Positions 8,654 through 62,961 of a stretch of 64,000 nucleotides of DNA are shown in pieces. The notes below the pieces were generated by a model, which did not search any database, was not told where the DNA came from, and saw only the letters and a program-made list of their open reading frames with translations. The stretch is taken from the NCBI GenBank assembly GCA_004431415.1, contig QPMI01000518.1, positions 24,796-88,795 of the forward strand. The letters are read 5' to 3'. Source of the DNA: Cyanophora paradoxa CCMP329 (Eukaryota > Plantae > Glaucophyta). Numbering within the stretch: position 1 is the first letter of the stretch; the number at the start of each line of letters is the position of its first letter. Made by a program: the position numbers and the translations under genes.

Positions 8654-11600
8654 TCATGGGCCAGCGCAGTTAGCTCTGCAGCTGCAGCTCCAGGTGCAGG
8701 TCAGCGGGGCCGGCGGGCCCCACCGTGGCCGCTTGGACCGGGTGCAGACGGCGGCCGCGCGGTGGGAGCGCCGCGGCCAGCGGGGCCGCTGGCGCCGCCG
8801 GGGTGGCAGGGGGCGTGGGCGAGGGCGGTGGGCGGGGCGGGGGCGGCGGGGGGCATCTTGGGGAGGCGGGCCTGGGCGCGGAGGGCGCGGGGCCCGAGCC
8901 GCTCGAGGGCGGTCTTGCCGTGGGGGAAGCGGCGCCAGCGGCGGCGGGGGAGGCCGGCGAGGTCCTCGGCCTCCTCGACGGCCTCCACGCAGGCCCGGCG
9001 CAGGCCCATGCAGAGGGTCTCGTACCCCTCCTCCCACGCCCGCCGCCGCCCCACCGCCGCGCACTCCTCCAGGAAGGTCCCCCGCAGGCCCTCCAGCCGC
9101 TCCAGGAGCTCGTCCACCTGCACGAGGGCGGCGGGCCGGTCCCGCCGCTGCCCGTCAGACTGAGGCTCTCACAAGGCCGCAGACGTCCAGCAAGCCGCGC
9201 GGGGCGCGGGGCGCGGCGCGGACCTTGTCGCCGCGCTCCTCGTCCTCCTCGTCGATCTCCATCTCCGACAGCGCCTCCATCGCCTCGTCCGCCCTGCGCG
9301 CACGCGCGCCCGCCCCGGTCACGGCGCCGCCCCGTTCACGCCAGGGCGGAGATCCGGCTAGGCAAGCTCCAACGATTTAGGGCTGCTTGGAGCCTGCGAT
9401 CAGAGGTGGAGGCTCCGCTCCCACGAGCAGGAAGAGCTCTGGCTTTGTGGGGATCCCAGCTGGAGGGCTCGAGGGTGCGCGGGGGCGGGGCCCCGCCCCC
9501 CGCCCCAGGGCGCCCGGCCCACACGCACGCTTGGAGGGCGTCCTCGCAGATGGAGGCGAGGTCGAGGAGCAGCTTGTGGTACAGCCGCTTCCGCTCCTGC
9601 GCGCCCGCCCCCGCGCTCAGCCCCCGGCCCCGCGCCCACTCCGCGATCTATAGCTAGTATACGTGGATATTCGTCGACGGCGGGGCGGGGCGGGGCGGGG
9701 CGGGGCGGGGCGGGGCGGACGCGGTGGGCGGGGGACTCTCTGTGCTTCCGGATGGCCGCCTGCGCGCGGCGGCGGCACCGGAACAGGCGCGTCAGCGGAG
9801 GGGCGCGCGTGTGCCTAGCGAGGCGCGCGTGGGCGGGAGGGCGGGGCGGGGGCGCGCCGTGCTCCGCGCCGGCTGCTTCTTGCACTCGCAGGCGTCGCAG
9901 GGCGTCTCCCCGTACCCCGCCGCCGCCGCCGCCTCCGCCGCCGCCGTGTACTGCGCGGAGGTGAGGGGGCCGGCGGCGGCGCCCCTTCGAGGCGGCCCGG
10001 CCCCGGGGGCGCCGCACGACGCACGACGGCGATGGCTAGCTCCGAGTCGTTGATGCTCGTGCGGGCGAACTCCTGCAGGACCTGCCGGGGGAGGGCGCTC
10101 AGCGGCGCGGGTGCGGCGGCTGGGCGAGACGGCGGCGGGCGCCTCAAGCCCGTCTCGCCGAGCTCCTCAGGCTAAAGCAAAACAGCCCAAGAACGCCTTA
10201 AAACTACCCGCAAAACAAAACAACCAAAAAAGCCTTGAAAACTGCCCTCATCGTATGCATCTCTCATGGCTAATTGCAGGCAGCTGTTCTGCATCGCGGG
10301 CACCTCGTCGGAGGGGAAGCCCCTGAACGGCTCCTCCTCGTCGTTCTCCTCCAGCTCGGGCGGGGGCGGCGCCGCCCCGTACCCCGCCTGGCCCCGCGGC
10401 CCCGGCTGCGCGCGCCCCGCCACGATCCCATCAGGCCGCGCGCGCCCTATCGAGGGGCGGGGCCGACCTGCGGGCCGAGGGGGCGGGCGGGGCCGGCCGG
10501 GGCGCGCCCGACCGGCCCGGGCCCGTCTCCATCCCACTCGTCACTCGGGACCTGAGCGGAGGCGATCGCGGGGCGCGAGTCAGACCGAGTCAGAGGGCCG
10601 AGGCGGCTCGCTGTCTCGAAGGCGGCGAGGCGGGGGACGGATCTCGCCCCATCAAGGCGGAATGGAGGGCGCACGGCGACGGCGCTGATGCCGTAGCGGT
10701 CGTCCCGCGTGGCCGCCTCCATCCCCGCCAGCCGCTCCGCCTCCTCCATCTCCTGCCCGCGCCTCGACGCCAGGCAGGCCCGATCGCGAGGCGCGGGGCC
10801 GGGCGGGGCGGGCGGGGCAGGACCTTCATCCAGTCCGGCTGCTTCGTCATGAGGGCGTGCACCAGCTGCGGGGCAAGGTTGTGAGGGGCGGCGGCCAGAG
10901 CGGGTAGACATAGATGCAGGCGGGGCGGCAGAGCCGCAGGCGAGCCCGCGCTCGAGGCGGGCGGGCGCGGGCGCGGGCGCGGGGCGGGAGGGAGGCGCGG
11001 ACCATGTCCCACTGGCGCTGGGCGGCGAAGCCCTGGGCGGCGGCCGCCATCTCCTGCCGGTCCCCCAGGAGCTTCTCCCCGTGCTGCCCGCGAGGTGAGC
11101 CGCGCCGGGCGGGGCGCCGCATGGCCGACTTGATCGTGGCTCCCGATCTTAAGATCTAGAATTCATCGGGTCCCGGCCGCGCCACGGTCCAGCGCGCCCG
11201 CGGGCGCGGACGCGGGCGATCTAGAGGCGCACTGGGGACGACGCTCAGCACGCGGGGGCGGGGCACCTTGGCGAGGGCGCGCCAGTTCTGCGGCCGGGCG
11301 CCGCTGGGCGGATTCGCCATCTCGCCCAGGCGCTCCACCTGCAGGCTTATGCTGCGCCGATCGCGAACGCAAACGCACAGTGAGCCGCAGGCGCGGCGAG
11401 ACGGCAGCTCGAGGGGCGCGGGGCGCGCCGCTGGAGCATCTCCTCGGGCTTGGTGCAGAGGAGGCGGAAGTACATGTCCCGCGCGTCCACGTTTTGCTGC
11501 GCCGGAAGTCGGCCGGGAGCGGGGAGAACGGTGCCGCCGACCCGAAGGGGCGCCGCACCGCGTGCTTCTCGGAGGCGTTGTGCTTGGCGACGGCCGCGGC

Positions 11601-12546
11601 GCTCCTCGGCTGCTCTTCCGGGGGGCAGAAGCTGCAGAACTTGAGCGGCCGCATCGCCTCCCCGGCGAGCTGCCGGCGGCGAGCGTCGCGGTCACGGGCT
11701 CATGATCATGATCAGGCTCTGAATCTAGGTCTAGACCGCCTTATTTAAGAGAGGGACGGACCGCGAGGCGGCAGAGCTCGGAGCGCCCGATGCGCTCCTG
11801 GAAGCCGCGCAGCGCCTCGCGCATCATCTCCTCCCCGCCGCCGCCGTCCACGATCTCCTGCACTTCCCTCATCGACGCCTGTGCGGCGCGGCCGATCGGC
11901 CGCCGGGCGTCAGCATGCGGCCAAGCCCCGGCGTGGTCGCTCTGGAGCGCCGAAGACGTCGACGCGCCTCAATGTCCTCCATCGAGTTGATGCCGTTGGG
12001 CATCAGCTCGCTCGACGCCAGCTGCGGCGAGCGGCGCCGTCGGCGGCTCAGCGGCCGGGGTTGGGGGCGGCGAGGGGCGGGAGCCGCGCCGCTCACCGGG
12101 ATGCCGACGCCGAGCTTCGCGTACATAGCTGCGCGGGGACGCCGGGTTAGAGTCGCGGAGTTCGTCCCGGCCGCCCAGAAGGCGGGGGGGCACCCTTGCG
12201 CTCGTCGAGGTCCATGTGGCGCTCGCGGCGCGCCAGCTCCTCCCGCACCTTCGCCTCCAGGCGCCGCCCCGCGATCAGCTCGCCCGCCTGCGCACGTGCG
12301 CGCACGCGCGGGGTCGGCGTGAGCGCCAGCACTGAATTTCCAAGAATTTCGGACTCGCCCGCCGCGGGTCATCTTCGAGGGCGAGGGCGTCGACGACGGC
12401 GGCGATGTCCCCCGCGTCCGCGGCCGCGCACGCAGCCTGCCGGAACGGGCGCTTTCGAGTTCGCGACGGCGGCAAATGTATCTAGCTTCAAAGCTTCGCG
12501 CACCTTTGCCACGAAGTACGCGCGGTCCTTGCGCAATCTTCCAGTG

Positions 12547-12582
<36 letters not shown>

Positions 12583-15500
12583 CCGTCCTTCGCGTTCGCC
12601 GCGGGGGCGGCGTGGTCGGTGTAGTACAGGCCGGGGTGCTCTTTCACGAGCCGCAGGCACTCCGCCGTCAGCCCCGCCCGGTCTGTTTCCAGCGCGCGTG
12701 AGAACATGGAAAACAGTGGGCGTTTCGACAGATGCGCACCGGCGACGGCGAGCGCGTGCCTCAGCCACCCCATCTTCGTGTAGAGCTGCACGCGAAAATC
12801 AGCAGAGATGCGAGGCGGCCCCCGCCCGGCCGGCGGCGCGCCTGGATGGCCTTCTCCCTGCTGCCAGCTGCCTCGTGCGCCTCGGCGACGAGCGCGAGCT
12901 CTCCCGCCTGCTCGAAGGCCGCCGCCGCCTTCGCGAAGTCGCCGGCGCTGTAGAGGCACCGCGCCGCGCTGACCGCCTCGCCCGCCGCCGCGAAGAGGCC
13001 CGCCGCCTCCCGGTACGCCCTCTGCCGCGGCTTCTCCCCCACTGCGCCTCGGCCCGTCGGACCGCAGGCGCCGCGACGCGAGCCGCGCGGGCGCACCGGC
13101 GGCGGCGGCGCGGGCGACGGCGCCGAGGGCGCGGGCGCGCTCGCCGCCCTTCGCGTCGCGCGCGTTCTCGAAGGCCCGCGCCGCCGCGTCGTACAGGCCC
13201 CGCGCGAGGTACTCCCGGCCCCGCGCCGCCTGCCCGCCCCGCCGTCAGCGGCCGTCGCGAGCGGACGGGGCGGGCGGCGCACCCACTCCTCGGGCCCGCT
13301 CTCGGCGGCTTGCGGGCGCGCGGCCGCCGCCTCGCCCTCCTCGGCGCCCCAGGGCCGCGCGACGCCGGCCGCCGCGAAGAGGTCGAGCATCGGGCGCCCG
13401 CGCTCCTCGTCCTCCTCATAGATCCTGCCGCCGCCCTCGGCGCGGGCGCCGGCGGGCGCGGCGCGGGGCGGGGCGGCGGACCAGACGTTGGTGCGGGCGC
13501 GGGAGACGGCGGTGTAGAGGTGCTTGAGCTCCGAGGCGAGCACGCGGCCGGCGCCGCCCGCCGCCGCCGCCGTCCCCGCCCGCTTCGCCTTTTTGTCGCC
13601 GCCGCCGGCGGCCCCGCCCGCCTCGAGGTCCTCGAAGCCCTTCGCGGCCGCCTCCGCCGCCCCCTCCGCCGCTGCGGCGGCGGCGCCGGCGCGGACGGCG
13701 TCGGCGCAGGCGCGGGCGGCCTCCTTCCACGCGCGCCCGTCCGCGAGCGCCGAGTCGCGGAAGAAGTTGAACCTGCGGCACGGCATGGGCACTGGCGGCG
13801 CGCGGGCGCGGGGCGCGGGGCGTGGGACGCGGGGCGGACACGAGGACGTCGCCCCACTCGAGGCCCTTGCTCTCCTCCACCGTCAGCACGATCGCCCGCT
13901 GCAGCCGCGCCGGCAGCCGGCTCCGCGCCGCCCCGCTCCGCACCAGCACCACCTGCCGCGCCTCAGCGGGCGGCGGCATGTCCGCAGCGCACAGCTCGCC
14001 TGGTCGGCGCCGAGGGGCGCGTCGCCCTCCGCGCCGCCGCCGTCGCCGAAGAGGAAGCGGCCGAGCAGCGCCGGCTCGCGGAAGAGCAGCGGCGCCGGGC
14101 CCGGCACCAGCCCTGCGCGAGCCGGCTCACAGGATGCGGCCGGCGGGGTGGGCGTGCGAGCGGGCGCGCCGGCGTCGCGGGCGAGGTGGTCGATCTCGCG
14201 CTCGAAGAGGGCCTCGATGGCGTCCAGCACCGCCGCCGAGAGGCCCAGCACCCCCGACTTCGACCGGTAGTTCTGCCCCCGCGTCAGGCCGGGCCGGGCC
14301 CGGCGCCGGAGCCGGGGCTGGGGCCGGCGGGGCGCACGCAGGTGAGCTGGCGGACGGGGAGGCCCGAGGCGGCGAGGCGGCGGGCGCGCCCCGCCACCTT
14401 CGCCTCGTGGTGGAACAGCGCCCGCAGATCCGCGAACCTGCCGCCCCGCCCCGCGTCGGGCCCCGAGCGCGCCGGCGCCCCGCCCCCGCCGGGGCGCACC
14501 GGAAGCCGACGCCGCGGGAGACGGTCTGGGCGGTGTCGCCGGCGAGGAAGAAGCCCTTCGGGTCCTCCGTGGCGCAGAAGAGGAGCCAGAGCTCGGCCTG
14601 CGTCAGGTCCTGCACCTCGTCCACCAGCACCTCGTGCACCGCCGCGCCCCGGTACCCCTCCCGCGCCAGCCCCCGGTACACCGCGTGCACCGCGTCCTGC
14701 CGCGGGCCTCGTCGCTTCGCCCGCGCCGGCGGGTGGCGCGGGGCGCACCATGCGGTCGTAGAGGCCGCGGCGGCGCTTCTCGGCGCGGTACCGCTCGAAG
14801 ATCGCGTAGACGCACTTCCGCTGCGACGGATCCAGCCGCGACCTGCGCACGCGCGCGGGCGCCGCCGTCAGGGGCGCCGGCGCGGGTCGGGGCGGGGAGC
14901 TCGGGCGCGCCGGCCGCGGCCGAGGGCGAGGTAGTCGTCCTCGCTGAGGCAGCCGTCGGGCTCCTCCAGGCTCGCCAGGCTCCCCTGCCGCGCGTCGCCG
15001 CCGGCGGAGGCGGGCGGCCCGGCGGGCGGCGCGCGCACGTGATGTGGGAGACGATCTCGGTCCAGGCGACGAGCGGGTGCAGGTTGCGCTCGCCCTTCGT
15101 CGCCGTCACCGCCAGCCACAGCTCCGACGCGAAGCCCTCGTACCCCACCGCCCGCTGCCCCCCGCCGCCAGCGGCTCCCCCTCCCGCCCCGCGCCCCGCC
15201 CACGAGCGCCTGGGCCCCTGCGCCGGGCCGTCACGATCGTTACCCCCGCACGGGCGGGCGCGCGGCCCGCGCACCGCGGGGAGGGGCGCGTCGGGCTCGG
15301 AGTCGGGCCCGGCGGCGTGGCGGCGGACGCGGCCGGCGTCGTCGCGGGCGAAGAAGGGCCGCGCGAGGCTCCCGTCGAGCATCTCGAGCCACTTCGCCGC
15401 CGTCACTGCCCGCACCGCGCTCGAAGGCGGCGGCGGGGCGGCGGCGGGCGAGGGCTGCGCGCGGACCGAAGAGGGGGAAGGCGTCGTCGCGGAGGGCGGC

Positions 15501-17155
15501 GACCGAGTCGGGCAGCTCGTGCGACTCGCGCCCCGGCAGCCGCGGCTCGCCCGCCGCCGCCGCCTCCGGCCCCGCCTCGCCGCCCGCTGCCCGCACCAGC
15601 GAGTGGCCCTCCTCCTGCGACCCGCTCGCCCCCGGGGCCGGCCGAGGCAGGCGGGGCGGGGCGGGGCGGGCACCAGGCGGGCAAACCAGGACCGGACCTC
15701 GCGGCAGAGGGCGGGCGACGAGGCCAGGAAGACCTGCGGGCGGGCCTCGGCGCGCGGCGGGCGGCCGGCCGGCGGCGGAGGCGGGGCGCGCCTGACGGGC
15801 GTGGCCCGAGACGAGCAGTTCGCGCCCCCGGCTCGCCTCCCAGTAGGCCCGGTAGCGGCTCCACAGGCGCAGCAGCGCGCAGCTCGTCTTGCCTGCCGCC
15901 GCGCCGCGTTGGCGGTGCGGGGCGGGCGGGGCCGGCGGCGGGCGCGTACCGGTGCCGGAGCGGCCGAGGAGGAGCACGGGCTCGTCCGCGCAGACCGCCG
16001 CCGCCTCCGCCGCCGCCGCCGCCGCCAGCGCCGGCGCCGCCCCGCCGGCGCCCGGTCCGCCAGCAGCCGCCGCGCGAGCGCCGCCGCCCGCTCCCGCACC
16101 CGCGCAGCACCCCCGCGTCTGCGCCCCGGGCCGCGCCCGCCTCAGCCGCGCCGCCGCCGGGGGCGCGGCCCGCGGCTCACCCGCGCTCCCACCGGCCTGG
16201 CGCTTCGGCTTGGCGGCGCGGCCCTCGGCCCCGAGCTCCGGCCCGGGCGCCGGCGGCGCGGCGGGAGACCCGAGCGATAGCGCCGCGAGGAGTAGCGTCG
16301 GGCCGGCGACGGGCGGGGCGGCGGGGCCGTCCGGCCCGTGGTCTCGGGGCAGCCGCAGCGGTTCGTTGGGGTCGCGCGGCGGGGCCCCGCCGGCCCCGCG
16401 CCCGGGCGCGCCGCGGCCCGGTGCCGCCGGCCGATGTCCTGGATCCGCCGCTGCGCGTCGTCGTGGTTGCAGAGGTCCCTGCGCAGCGGCCCGTGAGCCG
16501 CGGCGGGCGAGCGCGCGGCGCGGGCCGGGGGCGGGGGCGGGGCGGCCACCAGAGGAGGATGCAGTCGCGGGCGCTCTGGTGGCGCTCTGAGAACGAGACG
16601 GTCTCCTCCCACAGCAGCCGCCACCCGCCCGGCAGGTACGACTCGAACAGCGCGGCCCCGGGCGCGTTCTGCGCCGCCCTTGGGTCACCGGGCCCCAGCG
16701 CGGGGCGGGGATGAACGTACGCTGAGGTTAAGGGGCTTGGCGAGGCGCGCGGAGCGCATGCCGCTGGCGATCGCGTGCAGCTTGCGGAGCGCGGCCAGCC
16801 GGTAGACTTCGGCGGCGTCCCTCCACGAGAGCAGAGCGACGCGCGAGACCTCGACCTCCCTGCGTGCGTATAACACGAGAAATCATTGATAACCGTCGCG
16901 GGGGACGCGGGGTCGCATGCGCATGTCGAACGCGCACCACGGGCACTGCTCGATGCGCTCCAGCAGCGCCGGGGCGTCCAGAGTGCGCGAAGCCGCGTCG
17001 TCCATCGCATCTTCTTCAGCCTCTGCTGCGGTCGGACTTGCTGGTCGCGGCGGCTGGTCGGCGGGCGCCGAGGTCGAGGCGATCTGCAGCACGGGTAGCG
17101 GCTGGAGCCCTTCCTCGCGCGCCTTCTCGCGCGCGTACTCGTGCGGCGCCTCCAT
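8654..17155 (-). CDS. Host TRANK1/LBA1-like UvrD (SF1) helicase with helical repeats and C-terminal zinc fingers; left, uninterrupted copy; multi-exon
   Basis: Exon motifs LLGRSGTG(K)TSC (Walker A, split by an intron), VLVDEVQDLT (Walker B), LAGDTAQT, QNYRS, TVEESKGLEWGDV and ELKHLYTAVSRARTNVW. An in-frame splice ...SELCRLA|LAGEAMRPLKFCSFC...HNASEKH links the helicase to the CxxC..HxxxxxH fingers. Confidence 0.75.
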
Positions 17156-48574: not shown

Positions 48575-48585
48575 TTTTTGGCGAA

Positions 48586-49969: not shown

Positions 49970-50019
49970 CGGTCCTTTCGATGTCTCTTCCAACAACGAG
50001 GCTCCTCCTCGTGTGCGCG

Positions 50020-51774: not shown

Positions 51775-51850
51775 AGTAGCAATGTTGAAGATTTGGACAG
51801 GAAGTCCTAAAAAACGAAAGATCGAGAGATGTTGAAGATTTGGACAGAAA

Positions 51851-52255
51851 GTATAGTAATGTAGACGAGCTTCTATGCGCTGGCATAAAAGTATAGTAAT
51901 GTAGACGAGCTTCTATGCGCTGGCATAAAAGTATAGTAATGTAGACGAGCTTCTATGCGCTGGCATAAAAGTATAGTAATGTAGACGAGCTTCTATGCGC
52001 TGGCATAAAAGTATAGTAATGTAGACGAGCTTCTATGCGCTGGCATAAAAGTATAGTAATGTAGACGAGCTTCTATGCGCTGGCATAAAAGTGATAGTGC
52101 GCTGATAGTGCGCTGATAGTGCGCTGATAGTGCGCTGATAGCTAGCCGGAGACAAGCCGGAGACAAGCCCGAGACAAGCCTGTGCCAAGCCGGATCCCGG
52201 AGACCAAGCCCGAGCCAAGCCGTCAAGCCAATCGTTACAGGCATCGTTACAGGCA
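51851..52255. repeat. Subterminal tandem array: 6 x 40 bp, then ~4 x 11 bp (TGATAGTGCGC), ~3 x 11 bp (GCCGGAGACAA) and 2 x 12 bp
   Basis: gtatagtaatgtagacgagcttctatgcgctggcataaaa starts at 51851, 51891, 51931, 51971, 52011 and 52051. Confidence 0.95.
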
Positions 52256-52370
52256 TTCACTCCCAGCGATGCCGGAGCCCTAGCTTAGTGAAGCGCTCAG
52301 CATTGGCTTGTACTCGATCGCCGGCCCGACAGGATCAGCACTGCTAGAGGCGATGCGCAGGATCGATGCG

Positions 52371-52800
52371 TTAGCTACAGCAGCTCGCTAGCATTCTCAT
52401 CGACCTCGGGATCGCAACAATCGTCTTAGCAGGAACAGCAGATGCAGGAGGGGCAACCTTCTTATCGACCTTTGTCTTCGTGATCGGTTCATTTAAAATC
52501 TTGTTCTCCATCTTAGTCTCAGCCGCGATGCCAGCTATAAGATCACTAGCTCGCTTCTTTGAAACTGTTTTAAGACCGGTCACAGTTTTAATGAAATACC
52601 TGCTACGATTAGCCGTCTCTGAGATGTACAGCGGCCCATCGTCGTATCCTTAGCTTGCTAGTCTTGGTCTTCTTAGTCCGAGAATTCGGATCTTATCAAG
52701 AATAGCGTTCTCATCGGCGGTAAGAGCATAGTCGTTGGATGCACCCTCACCGCCACCAGCGCGACGGGCTAGCGGTAAGCATCAGTATCACCACTCAAGA
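52371..52800 (-). pseudogene. Frameshifted Lys-rich hypothetical protein, probable homolog of 43287-44021
   Basis: Shared TKxxVDKxVAP motif; fragmented reading frame. Confidence 0.4.
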
Positions 52801-52979
52801 ACTCGATGTGATTCTTCTTAGTAGGGCTGGAAGTGCGCAGCCAAGACTGCATGTCTGTCGACTTCTTCGCGGAGTGCGCAGCCGAGACTGCTTGTCTGTC
52901 GACATCTTTTAACTAGTAGTGGGAAAAAACTTATGCGAACGATCTGTCGAAGGGACGTACTCGCTGGCTGCATTCTTGA

Positions 52980-53785
52980 TTGCGGATTTAGCAGCAGCAG
53001 ACGTGTAAGAGACATCTCGATATCGAACTCTAGCACGAACGAGAACTCCGTGTTTGTGACAGCGTCTGTTCCATTATGATAGCGCAGCGATATGTCAAGT
53101 TCAGACAGCTCAGCGTTTCGATCGAAGCCTGTGACGGGAACACGATCCTCAGATGTGAACTTGATGAGCTCCCCGAATTTTGAGTCGATGTGAATCTTTG
53201 CGATCGAGCCGTTGTATAGGGGTTAAGTGTCAAGATCGAGCCTTTGATCTGCTGAATGTACAGGAACAAATACGTGTGATAAAGTAGATCAACTGGCATA
53301 TCGCTGAACAGCTCGTACGAATATTGTACGCATCGATTGTCTCAGGTGTGTCAAGCTCACTGGAAAGGTCACTGAGAGTCTTCGCAAACCCGAGCAGGTT
53401 CGCTAGTTCGGCCGATGTGAAGCTCAAAATAAAGTCCGCTTCACACAGGAACTAAGCCGCATTGAGATCTCTTCGAACTGAACGACGAACTTGCGCTGAT
53501 AAGTAGTTCCACCGTAACTATACTGCTGGGTTTTAAGAAGCGTGCTTAGATAGTTTGCAAGGGAGGTTGGCGTATAGACTCCGGGCTTGAAAGTGTTGGC
53601 ACGTGTTTTCTCAACGCCAGAGGGATCAAGGGTGCCGTGATAATTGCGGCTTGTGTGGACAGGTTGAACATGTTATGAAACAGTTCTAGCGAATCAACTC
53701 GCACCGACTTTACATTAACGAGGGCCTGGGAGATTGATCTTGAAATTCGAGGACGTGCCTTCGAACCGGTCCCTAGAATCGACAT
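52980..53785 (-). pseudogene. Minor capsid (penton) protein, frameshifted
   Basis: Fragments GTSSNFKINL, VNVKSVRVDSLELFHNMFN, LANLLGF, YLFLYIQQI and EFDIEMSL follow penton order. Confidence 0.6.
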
Positions 53786-53844
53786 TTACGCGGAGCTTCA
53801 TCTTACAACAATATGCATGAAAATTTTCTGGTCTATAATAGCAA

Positions 53845-55013
53845 ATGGCGCAAGCAGGAACAACTCTAAAGGAGCTCCTCACTACCAAGGTTCAAGCGAG
53901 CTTTATCTATCCCGGGTCTCACTGTCGGTGTCAGCCCCAAGTTCAAGCCTTCTTGAAACGATCCGTCCGCGAGGCAACTCGTACGGCTTCGCGCAGACTG
54001 CGCTTTCGACCTTCCGCGCAAGCAACTTCTAACGGTGTCTCGCTATACTTTAAGGTCAGCGTCGCTGGCGGAGCGGCCGCCTCAGTGCTGCCGAATGGCG
54101 CAGGTGCATTTATTGAAAACGTGCGCTTTGTTCATGGATCCTTCAAGATGGTGATCCCAGGAGACTGGCTTACTGTGAACGCGCTCATCGATAATAGCGT
54201 TGCATCCGCCCAGGCTTTTGCTAGCAGCTACGGCTTTGGAAAGGACGCTGCTCTTGAGATTCTCGATGCCAGTCGCGAGTATGTGCTAAAGATCCCTCCC
54301 AGCTCTGGGACAATTCATACTTCCCGCTCCTCGCACTGGCTGACATGCCCACCGTCGAGATTGATTCCGTCGGCTTCGGTGGTTGGAACTGTCGCTAGTG
54401 CTGTTGCAACTCTAACGGATTGTGCCTGGTTTGCCAGTTCGTGAATATCCTAGCGAAGAGGCTGAGTCTATGCTTAAATCTGCAAACGAGAGCGGTGTAT
54501 TCGAATTCCTTTCACGAGATTATTTCAAAGCGCTCGAGGCAGTTAAAGACTGACGACGCGGGGAATGCAGTCGAAATCTCCTTGCCAACGTCAGCGGCTT
54601 GTGCACGCGATCCTGATGACAGTGCGTAATGCGAATCACCTGGGCACTCGCATCACAATTCATTTGCTGGCAACGGAAATGCGCTGAAAATCGATTCGTT
54701 TGAGATCATGCACAACAACGAACTCTCGACATCAGCAATAAGCCAATCTCTGGGTTTGTATCATCGTGCTATCACATTCCAACTCAATACCGCGGTGCAA
54801 CCACTGGCAATTCAGCTCTTGGCTTCGAGGACGGAAATGTCTATGGATTGTGGCTTTCGAAATCTGGCAAAGACTCACTGCATAACGCTGTCCTCGCTAC
54901 ACGACTTCTTTAATTCCAGCAGCAGCTACTGCTCGCTAACTGTGACCGGCTGCACAACGCAGCGCCAGCAGTTGTTGACTCCACGTCCTGCGCCACAATG
55001 TTCTCGTAATTAA
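53845..55013 (+). pseudogene. Major capsid protein, frameshifted
   Basis: GAGAFIENVRFVHGSFKMVIPGDWL aligns with PVGALVSRLEITYGSYTFHVPSDFL of the element 1 MCP; it lies directly upstream of the ATPase. Confidence 0.65.
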
Positions 55014-55053
55014 CTCGTATCAAATGTCAACTCTAAAGGTAAGTAACTTCTAG

Positions 55054-55720
55054 ATGGATATCAAACTGTTTGATCCTACAGAAATAAAACTGCCTAAACG
55101 GTTCTTGTTTGTCGGTCCAACAAACTCGGGCAAGAGCACCTACGTAAAACACGTGCTAAATGCTGTAGCGCACTTAGACGATATTTACGTCTTCAGTACG
55201 ACCGCATTTACTGGGCAATGGAATGATACAACACGACCAAGTATATCCAGGAAGAATGGGATCCAGTTTTGGTTGAAGCGCTGCTAGAACGACAAAAGAA
55301 AGAAGACGCAAAAATGATGATCGCAGAATTGCAATTGTTTAGACGATTACTTGACAATGACCTAGTAATGTCCACAGTGACAGACTCATGCAAAAGCTAT
55401 TTACTTCTGGCCGTCATTACAACACACCCTTTTCATAACGACTCAACGTCTTTGTGGCATCAGTCGACGATTCGGCGGAACTGTGAGTACGTTTGCTTTT
55501 CGTCGATTTTTGAGCAATGTTTAAAGAGTTTCAACACTTGCTTCGACGAATATAATGCCGGAGCGAGTCGAGCAAATCTAATGCGTCTTTTCGTTGAATG
55601 GGGTCATTCGTTTCAGTTTTGATATATGAAGGCGTGAGCGCGGACCGCGTTTATGCTGTTGACAAAGCTCTGGAACGACTTCGGCTTATTGCGCTTTGTG
55701 CGCGTAAAAAAGCAGCGGCG
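55054..55720 (+). pseudogene. A32-like packaging ATPase, frameshifted
   Basis: FLFVGPTNSGKST Walker A; GRHYN and STIRRNCEY fragments in shifting frames. Confidence 0.85.
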
Positions 55721-56450
55721 ATCGAAAGTCCGTAGCCAGGACTGTTTGAGCAAACAACTTGTATATCTGGACGTGATGTCGCGATCCACAGGTAGGAGGC
55801 TCCTTTAAAATACAAAGCTGATGCAGTGACTGGGGTGTAGTTGACTCCTGCTGGCCAACAGTCTCTAGATTTAACTCTTCCTCTGCCGTTTCGAGTTCGA
55901 GTTCCATTAAAAAGATAAAGGGGTGTATTCCCTTCATTCAAACTGTGGGAAGTTCAGCCGCAGAAACGGCTTGTCCTCTTCGCTGGTATGTTCTATAACG
56001 TAAGCAATCACGAGCTTGAGCTGCTGCTTCGGCGGTTGCAAAGTAGCCGATGTTCTTTAGACGGCCATTGATCTGTAATTGCTTTCCATTTACAAAGTCG
56101 CTCATAGAAGCTGACGCCAATGAATCCTGATGTGTTTGTGAGCCGACGGTTTTGGTTCAACATCTGCTGACGCTTTGTCGCAAACGTAGATTCTCGCGAC
56201 GATTATCGAGTTTGTTATTATTAATGTGATCTACAGTAAGGTCATTCTCAGTCTCCAACAATGAACGTATGCAAATACATATTCTTCCATTGATCTTGCT
56301 CCGAGGCTATAACCATTGTTCAAACACCATCGTTTCTCCAGCACTCGATCAGCATCATCCTGTGATACAAAAGCGTAGGCGACGATTACTTTGCGCCGAT
56401 TGCGAATACCGCTAACGGAATCAAAGCAGCTCCTCTGGAACATCTGGAAC
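55700..56450 (-). pseudogene. HNH endonuclease with AP2 DNA-binding domain, frameshifted
   Basis: Fragments AFVSQDDADRVLEKRWCLNNGY, DHINNNKLDNRRENL, NTSGFIGV and QINGRLKNIGYFATAEAAAQARD. Confidence 0.8.
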
Positions 56451-56879
56451 GATGACCCTCCATCTGCGCAGCGAGCTGCTTGTCTGCGACTTTTTCGTTA
56501 CATTTACAGTTTGCATTATCTTTAAGACTTAAAAGTCGCGCTAATTTGTCTTAAAAGGATTTATGTCTCTTATTATTGAGAGACAAACCGAACAATGACT
56601 TCTGCAATTACTGGCGGATTGCGTGTGGCGGTTTAAACGTGGCCGTGGCGACCCCTAAGGTTCGTCTTTTAACAATGGAGCCTATCAGCGAAGAAGAAGG
56701 GGGCTAAACCGTGGAGGGTCACCCCGGAGATTTTAGCAGAGCGACGCAGAAAGAATGCTGAACGCAATCGCAAACTGCGCCACACGAACGAAACATACCG
56801 TTTGAAACAGCTGCCATCACAGCGAAGTATCGAGCTGAGAATCCTGATAGGATCCGGGAGTACCACAGGAATGCTATTG

Positions 56880-57811
56880 CGCGTAGATGCCTCGCGAAGA
56901 GCGGAGCTTCTGTAGAGCTCGAGGTGATGCAGCTTTAGCACCTGCTCGTAGCTTTGGCTCCCCTGCAATCTCAAGCTCTTGAGCTCTCGATACTGGCCGG
57001 CTTTGACCGCTGTATTTTTTGTTTCGATCAACCCTCACGTCTCAATCGTCTCTGCTGTCGCATTTGCACTTCTTCTTTTCGATTCGTGTTTGAGGTGCAG
57101 CTCACGCGTTGACGTATTTCCGATGGTTTAACACGTCTAGAAATTCCACACCGCTGTTTTGTAACGAGTCGAACACGGTTCTTGTCTGCGCCAGCAACTA
57201 TGTACGTCTCCTTGCTTGGCTTTGTGTTCCCTCGCAAAAACGTTGCTTCGGCTCCAGGACTTGCACTTCGGTCCTGTGCGCGGTATGTTCGAATTGTCTC
57301 GTTCAATATCGTTCTGTCGCTGTCTAACTTGATGCAGCTGCTCGGCTACCTGTGTATTTTCCCGCATCCACTTTGGTGAGTGCTCCCGCCGAAAGAGCTG
57401 TGGGCTGTTTCATTGTACGGCCTTGACAATTGCCGGCAAACGTGAGAGGAAATGCGGGGAGCCACGAGCTTCTGTATCAGTCTGAATCAGTGCTCGCAAT
57501 GTCCTCTGCGAACCTGTCGATAATTCCCAGCTTGGAGCCTTTTGAAATGTGATCATCCTTAGCCACATCAGTGTGCATTTTCAACGAGTTCTCTTCAGCC
57601 ATTTCCCGAATTGCTGCTGTGTTGAAGCCGTTGTCTCTGAAAGCCCCATATTCCAGGTAGCTGCTCGATCATTTTTGGAAGCTGCTTAAAAGTCTCGAGC
57701 TTACGGACCACAGCGAAACGGGTTGCAATCTCGACCGCTGCGACAGGCGAAATCTCCAATGAACAGCACGTCAATTTGCCACGCACGGGTGGCGGCAGTA
57801 ATCTGGTACAT
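56880..57811 (-). pseudogene. rve integrase, frameshifted; begins directly at the catalytic core
   Basis: MYQITAATRAWQIDVLF, AVEIATRF, DNG, KLGIIDRF and YNETAHS fragments; 3' end approximate. Confidence 0.7.
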
Positions 57812-57820
57812 CTTTGTAAA

Positions 57821-60800
57821 TCAGGCGCGATTTTTATAATGTCCATCGCTCGGTGTGTTGATCCCGTCAGTCTCGAGGAAGCGTTTGGTATCAAGGGATG
57901 TAGAGCCGACGCGAGGTTCGTTGTAAATAAATCTCCATGTAGTTTTCGAGCGGAAACCGAGAATCCTTTGATGTCATACGATTGCTTTCTCCCTCTTTAG
58001 GGCAGACGCACCGGAAGAATACATCTTGTGAGTCTGTTGTAGTACGTCTTTTGAATACCCTTGCATACCTGCTTGTCGTGGAATCTTCACGCGAATAATA
58101 GTAAGATTTCGGCGTTAGCGATCCACCTGTCATTTGCAGACCATGGAGCTCATCCTTGAATAATCCGGAGTTTTCCCCATCGATCGTAGAGTCGAACCTC
58201 ATCGGCTGTCATGCCATCGAAGAATCGATGTGTCTCTGGGTAGTCGCTAACATCCAGCTCATGCTTGATTGAGCGTAAATCAGCATAGATAATCTTTGGT
58301 GCGAAACTCGATGATAGACTGTCAGTATCCGTACCTAATAGTGTCAGCCGCTGGCCCAAAGCAGCTTGAGCACCTGGTAGTAAAAGCGGTACATGTGCAG
58401 CTTGGAAAGTTCGAGGATGACGAACCGCAGTAGATAGGTTTTGTTCAGATTGTACTCACTTTTGCGCTTGGAACGAATACAAGGTTCTCTTCGTACATCA
58501 CCACCTGCTTCAACCGATTTGGTTCGCTGTTGATCTTCACCAGACGGTCTCCCGAAGTCACAAGCTCTGAAAAGCAGTGCTTTCTCACGTTCTCCATTGT
58601 TTTGCCAAAGACACTGTTGTTCATCAACTTGTAAAGGTCCTTCTGGTATGTGAACTGCGATTCTTTACGTTTTTGAGTATTGAGATCTATGAAACGCCCT
58701 AGCCATGCGCTTTGTTCGTACGATAGGATCCGATGGATGTTGGTTACTATCATTCCCAGTGACGTATAGAGCTGAAGCAAGCGTCCATCAACAACATAAT
58801 TCTTTTTTGGAAGCAGATTTGGAACGAGCTTTGGAGTTCGTTCAACTGAGGTAAGCTTCTCGTCGTTAATCATATCCTGTTGTCGCTTTGATAGGTGTTC
58901 CTTGGACACACACATCCGTTCAGGGGCCAGCGGATAGTCTGAGAACTCGTCATGGAGATGCTCAGGCATGTACATATCGACTTCGAGAGCATAGCCACGA
59001 GCTCCATCCGCGTCAAGGCTTGCAACGTACTGCATTACATCAACGTCTTGATCTAGTTTATCCCAGCGGAAATCTCCTGTGGGTAGCTTGCGCTTCATTG
59101 CGACGCCGTACAAGTTGTTTGCATCGAGGTACATGAGCCACGATTCCTTGTGTGTTCGGTAGTAGTTAGAAATGCATGTAGACTGTGAGACTGTAGGCTC
59201 AACAGCGTGGGTGTACTTGTTGAACTTTATGCTCAAATATTTGTTCTCAGCTCGTGCGTAGCGTTTTGAGATCATTGAGATTCCGCCCCTGATCCCGGAT
59301 TCTATAAATCTGTGCATATCCTGCTGCCCCTCGTGAAAGAGCTCGAGCTTCACTCCAGTGTGCTTAAGTGCTGCCTGCCAAGCAAATCCCGGCGATGACA
59401 TAAAATAGCTAGGATCTAGGCCATACGTTTCAATACACGTATCACGATAGTTTTCAAACACGTCAGCTAGTAACGCGATATCTGTCATCATATACTCCAT
59501 TGTATAGCCTGATAGCGTTCTGCAGCCGAGCTCTCGCCAAACAGCCTTCGCATGTGCGTACTCATCTTTCGTGCATTTCTTCTGTTTAAGCTGATTTTTG
59601 AAATAACGACGTGCAGGCAGTTTAGACTCCTGAAAGCGAGCCCAGCTCGTCATGTAGTCATAAGGGTAAATCCCTTTGCTAGTCATCAGCTTGAACCGAG
59701 TCTCGTCCAGATACAGCGAGCGCGTGATCTTCTTCTTCTCCGCGGGCAGAGCCTTTGCAAGGTCGTCCAAGCTCGCATTCAAGTGCTGAGCCGAGTCCCG
59801 TAGAACGTAAATTCCATACTTGAACTGCGAAATTCGCTCGCTATTCTGGAAGACCTGATCGAATTTTATCGAAAGGAGACTCTGCGGGCGGAGCCGGCGT
59901 TCGAGCCCCTTCTTCGCCTTCTTTTTCTGCTCTGGGGTCATCTCACGCCCACCGTACTTGCTTTCAAACTCGCTTTCGACATGCGCTTGAAACTCCTTCC
60001 AAGCTGCTAAACGACGGTTATAGCCAGATGCTAGAGCACGTACGAGCAGGTGGAAGTCAAATCCTCGACCGTTGTGCCAGAATAATGGAACAGCAGCTGA
60101 TTTCGCGCGGCGTCGATTGCAAGCTCTGCAGGCAGCCCCGAAATATCGGCCAGATTCGTGGCAGTGATCACGGTGCTTGTCTTTCGCATCCTTGAACGTG
60201 TTCTTGCACATGTAGCACTCGGTCGTCGTTTGAAAACGCTGCTCCTCTTCCTGAGTAATCTGGATTGGTGCAGTCTCTCGCAAAAGCTCTCGGAATTGTG
60301 GTTCCATTTCGTCCAACCATTGCACGAACTTCTCAGTGCAGTCCTCGCTCTCCGAACCCATGTATTTGAAACAAAACTGTTCACCTTTTGAAGATACAAC
60401 CAGACAGCCGACTGAAGCAATCACATGCACACCTTTCTTTTCGGTCTTTCCACTAATGCAGGGAATTGGCATTGTAATCGTCTCTGAATCAGCATATCCG
60501 ACCAGACGTTGCCGGATTGAGTACTCAAAGTTAATAAACTTCTGGATATGTGCTCCTTTCTCCGGCAGAACATCTCTTGCGTGTTCATCCCGATCAAGGC
60601 AACGGTCATATTTCAGATGATTTTCAAATGCTTGATCTGAGCTAAAACCGACCTGGCAGGCTAAGCAATAGTGCTTTGCATTTGATTCGTTCTTTCGGAA
60701 CAGTCGTGAGACGCTCTTAATCCAGAGGTAATGCCCGACATCGTTTCCCTCCCCAGCCGGCACATACAGTATTGGGATTGCGTCTCTCGCAGCACTGATA

Positions 60801-61867
60801 TGGATTGGTATGATATCCTGCTTATCTAGAGCAGTTGTATAAACGCAGAGCTTGACGTTATTTGCTTGCTCGAATTTGGTGAACATCCTCGAGTCAAGCG
60901 GGGTCGGATATGTAAGCATTGAGCAGTCCAGCGATGTCTCGTGCTGGCGGTAGTTCCCTGCATGCCGAGAATCAACACCTTCGCCCAATGGATTGCGAGC
61001 AGCAAGGACTGCGTATTTAAAGCACTCGTTGTTCGGTGCATTTATATTGATAAGCGCGTGCTTGTCTGAGAGCCACTTTGGCAGTACAAAGCCTCGGCCA
61101 CGGCCACCAATCCTGCGGAAATAGCGCACAGTTTTAAAGACCAGATACACCCACGTGTCAAATACTGAGGAATCCCTGCTTTTCTCTGCCGAGATCATGT
61201 CTAATTCTTCGAGCTGTGAACGCAAGGCCGCCTCAATGCTTGTCCCTGGCTCGATGCGATCGAAACGACGATGTTCAATAACGATAGCGATCGTAGAATC
61301 TGTCTCTGGCTTTCTGTAGACACCCAATCCAGAGATTTGTAGTGCAATGCCCATTCTTACCGCCTCTGCAAGATTTACCTGGGCGCTTACGAATGATATA
61401 GCATTCTGTTTGAACTGCTCAGAATTCTCGAAGCGAGCTTGCATTGATGTTACGCGGCCAGAACCGCGAGGCAATTGGTATTTCCACTCCGCATATCGCC
61501 CGTCAAGCGCTGTTGTAGTATTTCCGTCATTGATTTGAACATCATTTCCACCGTCATCCTCAGGCAGCTCGGCAAAGCCACGGACGATCTCTGCCTGCAC
61601 CTCTGCGATCGCCAGCTCTAGTCGACGACCTGACACAGGACGCGCTGGCCTAGGAAGTCTTGCAAGTTCGTTCAAAAGTGAAGCGTACTTTTCCAAAGTT
61701 GCAAACCGTGTTCTCGACCCTTGTGCTGAAATTCTAATCAATTTATTTTTGAAAGCTCCATGTATGACGCGTCGATTATACAATGAAATCGCGAGCGCTT
61801 CGATCTGGTCTTTGATTCTGGCCAACCGGAAGCGCCGAGTCGCTGCATTATTTTGGGTAACGTCCAT
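57821..61867 (-). CDS. polB: Protein-primed family B DNA polymerase; 1140 aa intact, C-terminal ~200 aa frameshifted
   Basis: Exo I YADSE, Exo II WHNGRGFD, Exo III YMMTD; DANNLYG, KLMNNSVFGK and GTDTDS; C-terminal DTKRFLETDGINT..GHYK ending at TGA 57821-57823. Confidence 0.95.
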
Positions 61868-61995
61868 TGGAAGTATATCACAATTTTTTTGCTTGTTCCA
61901 AACGCAACTTCACATAGCAATATTGGAAAGGGATCTCTTTAAGACAAAATAAGAGAAACCTCAATTGCGGTGACCCTTTGGTGATTCAAAGACCG

Positions 61996-62417
61996 GCGCT
62001 ATCATCCACACAGTATTATTGACTAACTAGAACCTAAACTCGCATATGCAATCAGCTTCGATTATATAGTTTTCGTCTAGCTAGAACCTGGAAACCTCTC
62101 CGCTATTTAGATAGGAAGAACACAGTATTAACGCCTAGCTGCTGATTAAGCTATCTCTGCAGACCGTCGCGTTGGGGCCCGTCTCAAATCACTGCTATAT
62201 CTTTTGCAAGATCGATTGGAGTAGACGTTAGATACTACCTAGTGGTTGCTGATGGAAGGGGAGGTAGACCAGAGGGAGAGAAGGGCGGTAGACGTAGCGG
62301 AAGGGTTGGCGAGAGTGATGGCTGGGAAGACGCTGGATTGGGTGGGTTGGGGTGGGTTCGGAGAGTGAGGGTGGTGAAGAGGGGTGGGCCACAGAATCAG
62401 GTCCTCTCTCATTTTTT
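61996..62417 (-). repeat. Right TIR of element 2 (~422 bp)
   Basis: Reverse complement of 51348-51774. Confidence 0.93.
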
Positions 62418-62961
62418 GGGGCCCCGACGAGGACGAGCTCCCGAGCCGGCCGCCCGCCCCGCCTCCGGCCCGGCCCCGGCGCAACTCGGAGCGTGGCTTC
62501 CTCTGACCGCCGCCCGAACCGCGCAGATCCAGGCCATGGCGATGCGATGCTGGAGATGCAGAGGGCCTCGTGGCGGGGGCCCAGGCCGCCGGCCTGCGGC
62601 GGGTGGAGGACAGCTGGCGCGCGCTCGTGATCGAGCGGCGCCGCGAGTGCGTGGGCCTCGTCGAGGAGGCCGAGGAGGCCTTCGGGCTGCCGCCCCGCAA
62701 GTGGCGCCGCTGGCCCCACGGCCGCTCCGCCCTCACCGACCTCGGCCCCCGCGCCATCCGCACGCAGGCCCGCCAGCCCAGCCTCGGGCCCGTCGCCCCG
62801 CCCCCCCCCGCCCTCTCCCACGCCCCCTGCGCCCCCGCCCCCGCCCGCCGACGCCGACCCCTCCGACCGTGGCAATCCCGCCGCGCGGCCTCCATCCGCC
62901 CCTGGGCCGAGCGGCCGCGGGGCGCCCCGCCGACCCCGCTGACCAGCGGCTGCAGCGCTAG
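62418..62961 (+). CDS. Host TRANK1-like gene, right copy, 3' exons
   Basis: RRECVGLVEEAEEAFGLPPRKWRRWPHGRSALTDLGPRAIRTQAR matches left-copy RRACVEAVEEAEDLAGLPRRRWRRFPHGKTALERLGPRALRAQAR (8701-9123). Confidence 0.7.

What the first reader, a model, noticed from the sequence alone, without database searches (positions are those of the whole stretch)
8654..62961. Head-to-head palindromic helicase pair with an identity gradient; both viruses hit the same copy
Seen: two TRANK1-like genes have putative ATGs ~100 bp apart. The inner ~4.3 kb of the arms is almost identical, introns included, while the outer exons are clearly diverged. Element 1 lies in an intron of the right copy. Element 2 lies 1.4 kb further on, inside an exon: removing it restores ...CDLGGPDEDEL... 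in frame. Inference: an old inverted duplication with arm-to-arm gene conversion homogenising the helicase core while the C-terminal Zn-finger region diversifies, a pattern typical of immune sensors. The redundant copy is either a safe harbour or a gene whose loss favours the viruses.
Basis: partly seen in the sequence, partly recalled or inferred. Interest (0 to 1): 0.7.

Follow-up and report, generated by a model that had tools for sequence, protein, structure and literature searches.

The report
Virus-hit copy of palindromic helicase pair
Two head-to-head copies of a helicase gene in a very GC-rich eukaryote share a nearly identical 4.3-kb core, likely kept alike by gene conversion. One copy carries two separate integrated small DNA viruses, which is likely tolerated because that copy is a spare, not because it was targeted.

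Summary
Two UvrD-family (TRANK1-like) helicase genes lie head to head, with ATGs at 17155 and 17258 around a 92-nt spacer. The inner arms (12822-17160 and 17253-21584) are about 99.5% identical, introns included. Identity then falls as a sharp step, not a gradient, inside the last 60 nt of exon 19. The outer exons are 40-76% identical in protein.

The right copy carries two unrelated TIR-bounded pPolB elements, each with a 6-bp target duplication:
- E1 is 23566-49969, in an intron-like stretch.
- E2 is 51348-62417, in an exon-like open frame.

Short-read contigs of two runs cover three of the four junctions, reaching 27-30 nt into the elements. They also show that both element families are multi-copy, and that the window has many single-base deletion errors.

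The right copy also has a changed splice acceptor at the Walker-A intron and an Arg-to-Cys change beside motif VI, where the left copy and a third paralogue agree.

Best reading: an old inverted duplication, homogenised by gene conversion, with a decaying spare copy that tolerates insertions. Targeting, immune-sensor function and a Zn-finger region are not supported. This is an ordinary combination of known phenomena, of moderate interest.

The parts
8654..17155 (-). Left copy of the TRANK1-like UvrD-family helicase gene. It has no insertion and keeps the canonical GT..AG intron at the Walker-A exon junction.
   Evidence: Colinear homology to the right copy. tblastn of P0001/P0002. Intron and GRSGTG|KT junction read.
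12822..17160 (.). Left inner palindrome arm (4,339 nt).
   Evidence: about 99% identical to 17253-21584, with 19 substitutions inside 12889-17160.
17161..17252 (.). Unique 92-nt spacer between the two start codons. Inferred to be a shared divergent promoter and 5' UTR region.
   Evidence: GC 0.685. The promoter role is inferred, not tested.
17253..21584 (.). Right inner palindrome arm. Covers exons 1-19 of model P0001 (helicase core plus first TPR-like part).
18521..18522 (+). Splice acceptor of the intron that splits the Walker A motif. It reads AG in the left copy and AA in the right copy. The next AG is 1 nt on and would shift the frame. The annotated model P0001 skips the P-loop exon part.
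   Evidence: P0002 has ...LLLGRSGTGKTSCALL... uninterrupted. Not checked in reads.
20911..20913 (+). Codon next to helicase motif VI (YTAVSRA[R/C]TNVW). It is Cys in the right copy and Arg in both the left copy and P0002.
21585..23565 (+). Right copy, diverged outer exons 20-31 of P0001, up to the E1 insertion.
23560..23565 (.). Left copy of the E1 target-site duplication, CGGTCC. The right copy of it is at 49970-49975.
23566..49969 (.). Element 1: 26.4-kb polinton-like virus / Maverick-type element, GC about 0.40. TIRs at 23566-24951 and 48586-49969.
36161..39441 (-). E1 protein-primed family B DNA polymerase, in two ORFs (37117-39441 and 36161-36976).
   Evidence: Pfam DNA_pol_B_2 scores 22.7 bits, below the 25.8 cut-off. 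It is 28-30% identical to the E2 polymerase, E 7e-37.
34578..35531 (-). E1 rve-type integrase candidate. Only the rear part of the core domain matches.
   Evidence: Pfam rve E 0.003, 18.2 bits, below the 32.6 cut-off. No chromodomain.
40042..42403 (-). E1 primase / D5-like helicase, in three ORFs.
   Evidence: D5_N 36.6 bits, DUF5906 33.2 bits, Prim-Pol 22.3 bits.
44076..44789 (-). E1 A32-like packaging ATPase.
   Evidence: Pfam Pox_A32 E 2.4e-5, 24.4 bits against a cut-off of 22.8.
44893..46290 (-). E1 major capsid protein candidate.
   Evidence: Its position is next to the ATPase. Atlas lead 0.98 to clusters in which 12-30% of members carry Capsid_N / Capsid_NCLDV. No Pfam or PDB hit, and the AF2 model was too poor to use.
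49976..51347 (+). Right copy: host segment between the two elements, with four or more exon blocks conserved with the left copy.
   Evidence: 50021-51196. One short-read contig covers 49943-51377 in each of X1 and X9, at depth 58 and 53.
51342..51347 (.). Left copy of the E2 target-site duplication, GGGGCC. The right copy of it is at 62418-62423.
51348..62417 (.). Element 2: 11.1-kb pPolB element, GC about 0.48. TIRs at 51350-51774 and 61996-62417. Apart from the polymerase, its ORFs are broken in this assembly.
   Evidence: Short-read contigs carry 19 extra letters in 52470-54031.
58445..61909 (-). E2 protein-primed family B DNA polymerase (1,154-aa open frame) with a C2H2 finger and an Endonuclease VII-like insert.
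   Evidence: DNA_pol_B_2 42.2 bits, Endonuclease_7 30.8 bits, zf-C2H2_jaz 25 bits, all above their cut-offs.
62424..62961 (+). Right copy: terminal part of the gene after E2.
   Evidence: 62585-62785 is 54% identical in protein to left 9057-8854. Contigs cover 62390-63000 in X1 and X9.

Best explanation
An old head-to-head duplication of a TRANK1-like UvrD-family helicase gene has had its first 4.3 kb made nearly identical again, most likely by arm-to-arm gene conversion. The right copy carries two independent polinton-like virus insertions with 6-bp target duplications, and is likely a dispensable, decaying duplicate in which such insertions are tolerated.

Shown by the sequence or by calls:
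- the palindrome, its spacer and the sharp identity step;
- the diverged but colinear outer exons;
- two unrelated TIR-bounded pPolB elements with TSDs;
- both element families being multi-copy;
- the right copy's changed splice acceptor and its Arg-to-Cys change.

Inferred:
- Homologous repair between the inverted arms copies one arm onto the other, in one or several events. This holds the arms at about 99.5% identity and raises their GC.
- Conversion stops where the flanks are too diverged to pair, which gives the step.
- E1 and E2 integrated by an rve-type integrase, as the 6-bp TSDs suggest. Both are recent, since their TIRs have no substitutions.
- The insertions persist because the intact left copy supplies the function.
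- Their closeness would be chance, or relaxed selection on the spare copy, and not targeting.
For: Palindrome and step:
- Structure and identity profile.
- The introns are identical inside the arms and unalignable outside. The contrast is therefore homogenisation, not slower protein evolution.
- GC is 0.80 in the arms, 0.74 in the left outer part and 0.67-0.68 in the right outer part.
- Differences are denser near the outer arm end: 12 of the 19 substitutions lie in the first about 1 kb.

Elements:
- TSDs and TIRs.
- There is no nucleotide similarity between E1 and E2, and only the polymerase is shared, at 28-30%. They are two independent events.
- Junction contigs appear in two runs (records 1/24 and 8/31).
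- 541 and 615 contigs were laid on the 14-kb stretch. Summed depth is 800-1,900 over E2 and 6,900-16,000 over the E1 TIR, against 44-58 on unique host DNA. Both families are multi-copy.

Right copy decaying:
- The acceptor AG has become AA at 18521-18522.
- At 2 of 3 amino-acid differences that could be polarised with P0002 (20911, 21034), the right copy has the derived state. The third (21518, inside the step zone) is derived in the left copy.
- The annotated model P0001 lacks the P-loop and stops just before E1.

Genic integration of such elements is common elsewhere (PMC8547959, passages).
Against: - No read-level check of the spacer, the arms or the E1 left junction was possible.
- The window has many single-base deletion errors: 14 gaps in 611 nt of unique host DNA. 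Intactness of the left copy cannot be claimed, and the two right-copy substitutions are unverified.
- Each arm shows about 3 frame-breaking 1-nt indels against P0002. In 5 of 6 of these, the out-of-frame arm is the one that lacks a base, which is the error type seen in this assembly.
- The sharp step would also fit a single recent event.
- Copy numbers rest on summed contig depth, which the tool says is not a copy number.
- No expression data were obtained.
- P0002's model ends exactly where arm identity ends, which is unexplained.
Confidence: 0.6

Rival explanations
1. Local hot spot. The first element made the site attractive for the second, through open or silenced chromatin, an AT-richer landing pad, or integrase tethering. 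On this reading the clustering reflects insertion bias near existing elements and has nothing to do with the helicase gene.
For: The two elements lie 1,378 bp apart. In another protist, 18 of 29 virophage integration sites lay within 10 kb of host repeats (PMC8547959, passage). Right-copy outer DNA next to the elements has lower GC (0.61-0.68) than the left copy (0.70-0.78).
Against: No chromodomain or other tethering domain was found in the E1 integrase candidate at E up to 1. No integrase at all was found in E2. There are only two sites, and both TSDs are GC-rich host sequence. The order of insertion is unknown, because both TIR pairs lack substitutions.
Confidence: 0.15
2. Targeting or selection. 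The helicase is an antiviral or anti-mobile-element factor. Either the integrases aim at this gene family, or cells that lose one copy are favoured hosts, so hits accumulate in it.
For: There are two independent hits in one gene. The family has at least five members in this proteome: the left and right copies, P0002, P0033 and P0034. The outer part diverges quickly and has no detectable relatives.
Against: No immune-type domain or Zn-finger family was found. Only one of the two near-identical copies is hit. The TSDs differ (CGGTCC, GGGGCC), and the two sites, one in an intron and one in an acidic linker, share no motif beyond NGGNCC. A rough count suggests that about one such close pair is expected by chance if some 100 or more insertions sit in about 100 Mb; that figure is an assumption drawn depths. 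No literature link between TRANK1 and virus defence turned up (search listings only).
Confidence: 0.06
3. Assembly artefact. The near-identical core is a fold-back chimera, or a polishing collapse of two less similar paralogues.
For: The assembly is error-prone: contigs carry many extra single letters relative to the window.
Against: A fold-back would be identical to the end of the contig. Instead both arms run on into different, colinear, 45-79% identical flanks. The spacer is unique and asymmetric. The arms differ by 19 substitutions, including 4 synonymous and 3 non-synonymous codon changes. Sixteen DNA runs hold 0.85-0.86 of the sampled words of 14000-23999, though this does not test the arrangement.
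Confidence: 0.06

Closest known systems
Sex-chromosome palindromes kept alike by arm-to-arm, GC-biased gene conversion (human Y P6; primate X palindromes). PMC3723533 and PMC8981503: only the abstract starts in the search listing were seen.
   Same: Inverted arms are over 99% identical around a unique spacer and contain genes. The arm boundary is sharp. GC is higher in the arms.
   Different: The scale is 4.3 kb instead of tens to hundreds of kb. The organism is a unicellular GC-rich eukaryote. The palindrome covers only the 5' two-thirds of each gene, so each gene is a mosaic of a homogenised core and an old diverged tail. Conversion events themselves were not observed here.
Endogenous virophages and polinton-like viruses of protists. 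EMALEs of Cafeteria burkhardae: PMC8547959, passages read. Large-scale survey: PMC10120064, passages read.
   Same: The elements are 11-26 kb with lower GC than the host. They have TIRs, short TSDs, a pPolB or primase-helicase, an rve-type integrase and a capsid module. They have many copies per genome, often lie inside host genes, and show no sequence-specific integration.
   Different: The E1 capsid candidate has only 2 relatives among 1.84 billion representatives, and none in the viral or metagenome contig scans. No protease was found. Dependence on a giant virus is unknown.
Polinton / Maverick transposons. TSD length of 5-6 bp as quoted in PMC8547959, which cites Kapitonov and Jurka 2006 and Pritham 2007. 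Those two papers were not read.
   Same: TIRs, 6-bp TSD, pPolB plus an rve candidate (E1), and an A32-like ATPase next to a capsid candidate.
   Different: No Ulp1-like protease was detected. E1 also carries a primase/D5 helicase and a large cargo (patatin, C1q-like and AdoMetDC-like genes).
[quoted passage not shown] The name comes from the abstract of PMC8724122. 'Lupus brain antigen 1' as a synonym is recalled, not from a call.
   Same: A UvrD-like SF1 helicase core with a TPR-like part after it. Homologues named TRANK1-like or lupus brain antigen score E 1e-50 to 6e-62.
   Different: No ankyrin repeats were found in P0001 or P0002. These proteins are much shorter. The C-terminal region is specific to this pair, with no hit from P0033-P0036 or P0040 beyond the core.

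Membership tests
Palindrome maintained by arm-to-arm gene conversion | Inverted arms over 99% identical around a unique spacer. | tested here: met
Palindrome maintained by arm-to-arm gene conversion | Homogenisation, as opposed to a young duplication: the flanks or an outgroup show that the duplication is older than the arm identity suggests. | tested here: met
   Outer arms are colinear but only 45-79% identical, and their exons are 40-76% identical in protein.
Palindrome maintained by arm-to-arm gene conversion | Recurrent conversion events seen across lineages or strains. | not testable with these tools
Palindrome maintained by arm-to-arm gene conversion | GC enrichment of the converting arms. 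| tested here: met
   0.80 against 0.74 and 0.67-0.68. Other causes are not excluded.
Polinton / polinton-like virus | Terminal inverted repeats and a short (5-6 bp) target-site duplication. | tested here: met
   E1: TIR 1,386 nt, TSD CGGTCC. E2: TIR about 425 nt, TSD GGGGCC.
Polinton / polinton-like virus | Protein-primed family B DNA polymerase. | tested here: met
   E2 scores 42.2 bits against a cut-off of 25.8. E1 scores 22.7 bits, below the cut-off, but is homologous to the E2 polymerase at E 7e-37.
Polinton / polinton-like virus | rve-family integrase. | tested here: inconclusive
   E1 scores 18.2 bits against a cut-off of 32.6, and only the rear of the domain matches. None was found in E2.
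Polinton / polinton-like virus | Double jelly-roll major capsid protein. | tested here: inconclusive
   There is an Atlas lead of 0.98. There is no Pfam or PDB hit. The AF2 model had pLDDT 37, so no fold search was made.
Polinton / polinton-like virus | FtsK/A32-type packaging ATPase. | tested here: met
   E1 Pox_A32 scores 24.4 bits against a cut-off of 22.8. E2 has only a sub-threshold P-loop scrap at 55054-55284.
Polinton / polinton-like virus | Ulp1-like cysteine protease (Polintons proper). | tested here: not met
   No protease family appears in any Pfam scan of E1 or E2 ORFs. Frames in the window are error-prone, so absence is weak evidence.
TRANK1-like helicase | UvrD-like SF1 helicase domains. 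| tested here: met
   PF00580 scores 26.7 bits against a cut-off of 23 in P0001. UvrD_C_2 is sub-threshold. Motif II DEVQD and motif IV NYRS were read.
TRANK1-like helicase | TPR repeats. | tested here: inconclusive
   TPR_2 scores 17.5-17.8 bits against a cut-off of 27.
TRANK1-like helicase | Ankyrin repeats. | tested here: not met
   None in P0001 or P0002. They are present in the relatives P0006, P0009 and P0026.
TRANK1-like helicase | Sequence homology to proteins named TRANK1. | tested here: met
   P0040, 'TPR and ankyrin repeat-containing 1-like', E 1.2e-50. P0035, 'putative lupus brain antigen', E 5.7e-62. The names are the sources' own.

The most novel reading that the evidence does not exclude
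The palindromic helicase pair is a defence locus against DNA viruses or mobile elements. Arm-to-arm conversion preserves its helicase core while the tails diversify. The two polinton-like viruses sit in it because knocking out one copy, or integrating at this locus, helps them persist. That would be a eukaryotic counterpart of mobile elements inactivating host defence genes.
Probability: 0.05. Interest if true: 0.75.

Novelty: new member of a known kind. Interest (0 to 1): 0.38.

Why it matters
This locus is a compact, well-delimited example of gene conversion across a short palindrome in a unicellular eukaryote. The homogenised core and the old diverged tails lie side by side in the same two genes. 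It also adds a sparsely sampled polinton-like virus lineage with clean ends. The locus could serve as a natural marker for how fast arms are homogenised compared with how fast viruses integrate. It does not by itself show any link between the helicase and the viruses.

Tried and rejected
- Whole genome: none is held, so no genome-wide enrichment test was possible.
- Earlier findings: nothing relevant.
Those places and their mirror were not sent again, and the second and last call went to 49000-63000.
- RNA:
  - No RNA holder is listed.
  - On 49000-63000 their contigs lie only on the E2 left end (51350-51877, running on into other flanks) and in 20-25-nt scraps.
  - There is no cover of host exons, which is no evidence either way.
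- E2 empty-site joint: not among the 15 listed joints (2 more were not shown). The listed joints have sides of 20-31 nt in GC-rich low-complexity DNA, so I set them aside.
The step was stopped, so the diversifying-selection claim remains untested.
- Capsid confirmation:
  - Pfam found nothing.
  - A PDB profile search found nothing.
  - AF2 on a 3-sequence alignment gave pLDDT 37, so no fold search was run.
  - Scans of viral contigs and metagenome contigs found no relatives.
  - The E2 polymerase also had no match in viral contigs.
- The left copy's C-terminal exon found no annotated protein.
- A PDB search with P0002 found nothing.
- The Atlas was unavailable for P0002.
- No Zn-finger or other family was found in outer exons at E up to 1 (one search was a coordinate slip).
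- No chromodomain was found in the E1 integrase.
- No tRNA genes.
- E1 proteins have no match in the window flanks.
- 'E2 is a degraded relic' is rejected as unproven. Its TIRs have 0 mismatches, and the indels are of the same type as the assembly's errors.

Full report
**Setting.** The window is host DNA of 70-82% GC, interrupted by two blocks of 39-44% and 48% GC. No whole genome is held, and the scan has no earlier notes on it.

**The palindrome**
- Inverted-repeat search and blastn show arms 12822-17160 and 17253-21584 around a unique 92-nt spacer.
- The arms start 4-5 nt before two ATGs, at 17155 (minus strand) and 17258 (plus strand).
- In 200-nt windows, identity is 0.93-1.00 inside the arms and 0.45-0.76 outside.
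- The change takes place within 12828-12888 / 21518-21578, which is the last part of exon 19 of the annotated model. This is a step, not a gradient.
- Inside 12889-17160 there are 19 substitutions (about 0.45%) and 19 indel events. Seventeen of the indels are 1 nt in G/C runs.
- Twelve of the 19 substitutions lie in the outermost kb, some in clusters. That gives at most a mild internal gradient.

**Assembly quality**
- Short-read contigs of two DNA runs carry many extra single letters relative to the window. There are 14 gaps in 611 nt of unique host DNA, 19 in 1,562 nt of E2, and 2 in 1,435 nt. All 12 listed differences are letters added in the contigs.
- Six arm indels lie in stretches that match paralogue P0002. 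In 5 of these 6, the arm lacking a base is the one that loses the frame.
- The arm indels, and the broken ORFs of E2, are therefore largely assembly error. Frames in this window cannot prove that a gene is intact or dead.

**The gene**
- An exon carrying motif II (..LVDEVQDLTQAELW..) retrieved 30 proteins among 168 candidates.
- Two of the 30 come from the same proteome. P0001 is 100% identical and is the model of the right copy, with 31 exons at 17258-23485. P0002 is 97% identical in that exon and lies on another contig.
- Pfam finds UvrD-helicase above its cut-off, and UvrD_C_2 and TPR_2 below theirs. It finds no ankyrin repeats, though the relatives have them.
- A search among longer proteins gave 10 hits. 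Two are distant paralogues of the same proteome (P0033 and P0034, 34% identity). Two carry the names 'putative lupus brain antigen' and 'TPR and ankyrin repeat-containing 1-like'.
- 'TRANK1-like' is therefore fair for the helicase core.
- None of P0033-P0036 or P0040 matches anything outside the inner arms.
- No Zn-finger or other family is found in the outer exons.

**Outer arms.** With the elements removed, the right copy aligns colinearly with the left copy down to about 62956 / 8690. All 15 protein-level HSPs are colinear at 40-76% identity, including blocks after E1 (50021-51196) and after E2 (62585-62785). The introns do not align. The duplication is therefore old, and the core was homogenised later. 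GC is 0.80 in the arms, 0.74 in the left outer part and 0.67-0.68 in the right outer part. This fits GC-biased conversion, and perhaps decay next to the viruses.

**Element 1 (23566-49969)**
- The TIRs are 1,386 nt with no substitution, and the TSD is CGGTCC.
- Genes found:
  - a pPolB in two ORFs;
  - an rve candidate, sub-threshold;
  - a primase/D5 helicase in three ORFs;
  - an A32-like ATPase, above the cut-off;
  - a capsid candidate, supported only by an Atlas lead;
  - patatin plus discoidin;
  - two C1q-like proteins;
  - an AdoMetDC-like gene.
- E1 sits in an unconserved stretch of about 150 nt between two conserved exon blocks, 47 nt upstream of a CAG acceptor that both copies share. 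An intron location is therefore likely.

**Element 2 (51348-62417)**
- The TIRs are about 425 nt with 0 mismatches, and the TSD is GGGGCC.
- It has a 1,154-aa pPolB with a C2H2 finger and an Endonuclease VII-like insert.
- This polymerase is 28-30% identical to the E1 polymerase and has the same layout. Nothing else is shared between the two elements.
- The empty site reads ..AALCDLGG|PDEDELPS.. in an open frame with exon-like GC by codon position. The left copy has a weakly similar acidic stretch.
- An exon location is plausible but not proven.

**Reads**
- In each of runs X1 and X9, one contig covers 49943-51377. That is 27 nt of E1, the whole 1.38-kb host segment and 30 nt of E2, at depth 58 and 53.
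- Another contig in each run covers 62390-63000 (depth 44 and 51).
- By the tool's 31-letter rule these fall just short of formal bridging. They end where unitigs would end at repeats.
- Summed depth over E2 is 800-1,900, and over the E1 TIR 6,900-16,000. In all, 541 and 615 contigs were laid.
- Both families are therefore multi-copy, although the tool warns that depth is not a copy number.
- No E2 empty-site joint is listed.

**State of the right copy**
- The intron that splits Walker A (GRSGTG|KT) ends in AG in the left copy and in AA in the right copy. The next AG is 1 nt on and shifts the frame.
- Model P0001 avoids this by skipping the P-loop.
- Beside motif VI, the right copy has Cys where the left copy and P0002 have Arg. 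At 21034 the right copy again has the derived residue. One difference inside the step zone (21518) is derived in the left copy.
- From memory, the invariant arginine of motif VI is the preceding one, so the Arg-to-Cys change is not clearly inactivating.
- Four further exon differences are synonymous.

**Reading**
- This is an old inverted duplication whose first 4.3 kb was homogenised by conversion between the arms, as in sex-chromosome palindromes (PMC8981503 and PMC3723533; abstract starts only).
- The right copy is a decaying spare hit by two recent, independent integrations of different polinton-like viruses.
- Integration inside genes without sequence specificity is known. In Cafeteria, 15 of 22 sites lay in genes, and TSDs of 5-6 bp are reported for mavirus and Mavericks (PMC8547959, passages).
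- Such elements are common in protist genomes (PMC10120064, passages).
- Suppose on the order of 100 insertions in about 100 Mb, an assumption drawn. About one pair within one gene is then expected by chance, so the double hit is not evidence of targeting.
- Simple arithmetic compares ages. The arm substitution rate would predict about 6 differences in the 1,386-nt E1 TIR, and none is seen. If the rates are equal, E1 is younger than the last homogenisation of most of the arm.

**Unexplained**
- P0002's model ends exactly at the end of exon 19, where arm identity ends. In the step zone P0002 resembles the right copy more than the left.
- A perfect 34-nt tandem duplication abuts E1's left end.

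Noticed in passing
whole window; measured on 49000-63000: The assembly has frequent single-base deletions relative to short-read contigs, up to 14 in 611 nt of unique host DNA. ORF-based calls of 'broken' genes in this window are therefore unreliable.
   Followed up: partly
23497-23562: A perfect 34-nt tandem duplication (1.9 copies), AT-richer than the host, ends exactly at the E1 left TSD. Its origin is unknown: an intron repeat, a footprint, or a by-product of integration.
   Followed up: no
24856-34111 (E1 cargo): E1 carries an AdoMet-decarboxylase-like gene (43 bits) just inside its left TIR, and a patatin phospholipase fused to an F5/8 type C domain. It also has two C1q-like proteins and an 885-aa protein with histidine-rich 12-residue repeats and a weak H-lectin-like end.
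   Followed up: partly
37117-39441 and 58445-61909: Both polymerases share a long N-terminal region with a C2H2 finger and an Endonuclease VII-like segment ahead of the PolB domain. They are only 28-30% identical.
   Followed up: partly
44893-46290: The capsid candidate has only two relatives (60% and 36% identity) among 1.84 billion representative proteins, and none in the viral or metagenome contig scans. The lineage is sparsely sampled.
   Followed up: yes
P0002 (another contig of the same proteome) against 21518-21584: The third paralogue's model starts at the same Met and ends exactly where the palindrome arms stop being identical. In the step zone it is closer to the right copy than to the left.
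   Followed up: partly
51848-52141: A 40-nt unit repeated 6.2 times at 99% identity, followed by an 11-nt array, lies just inside E2's left TIR.
   Followed up: no
1-6500: The left flank has much lower GC (0.50-0.63) than the rest of the host DNA. It has no family hits and no similarity to E1 or E2, and its nature is unknown.
   Followed up: partly
23560-23565 and 51342-51347: Both target duplications fit NGGNCC (CGGTCC, GGGGCC). With only two sites this is probably just host composition.
   Followed up: no
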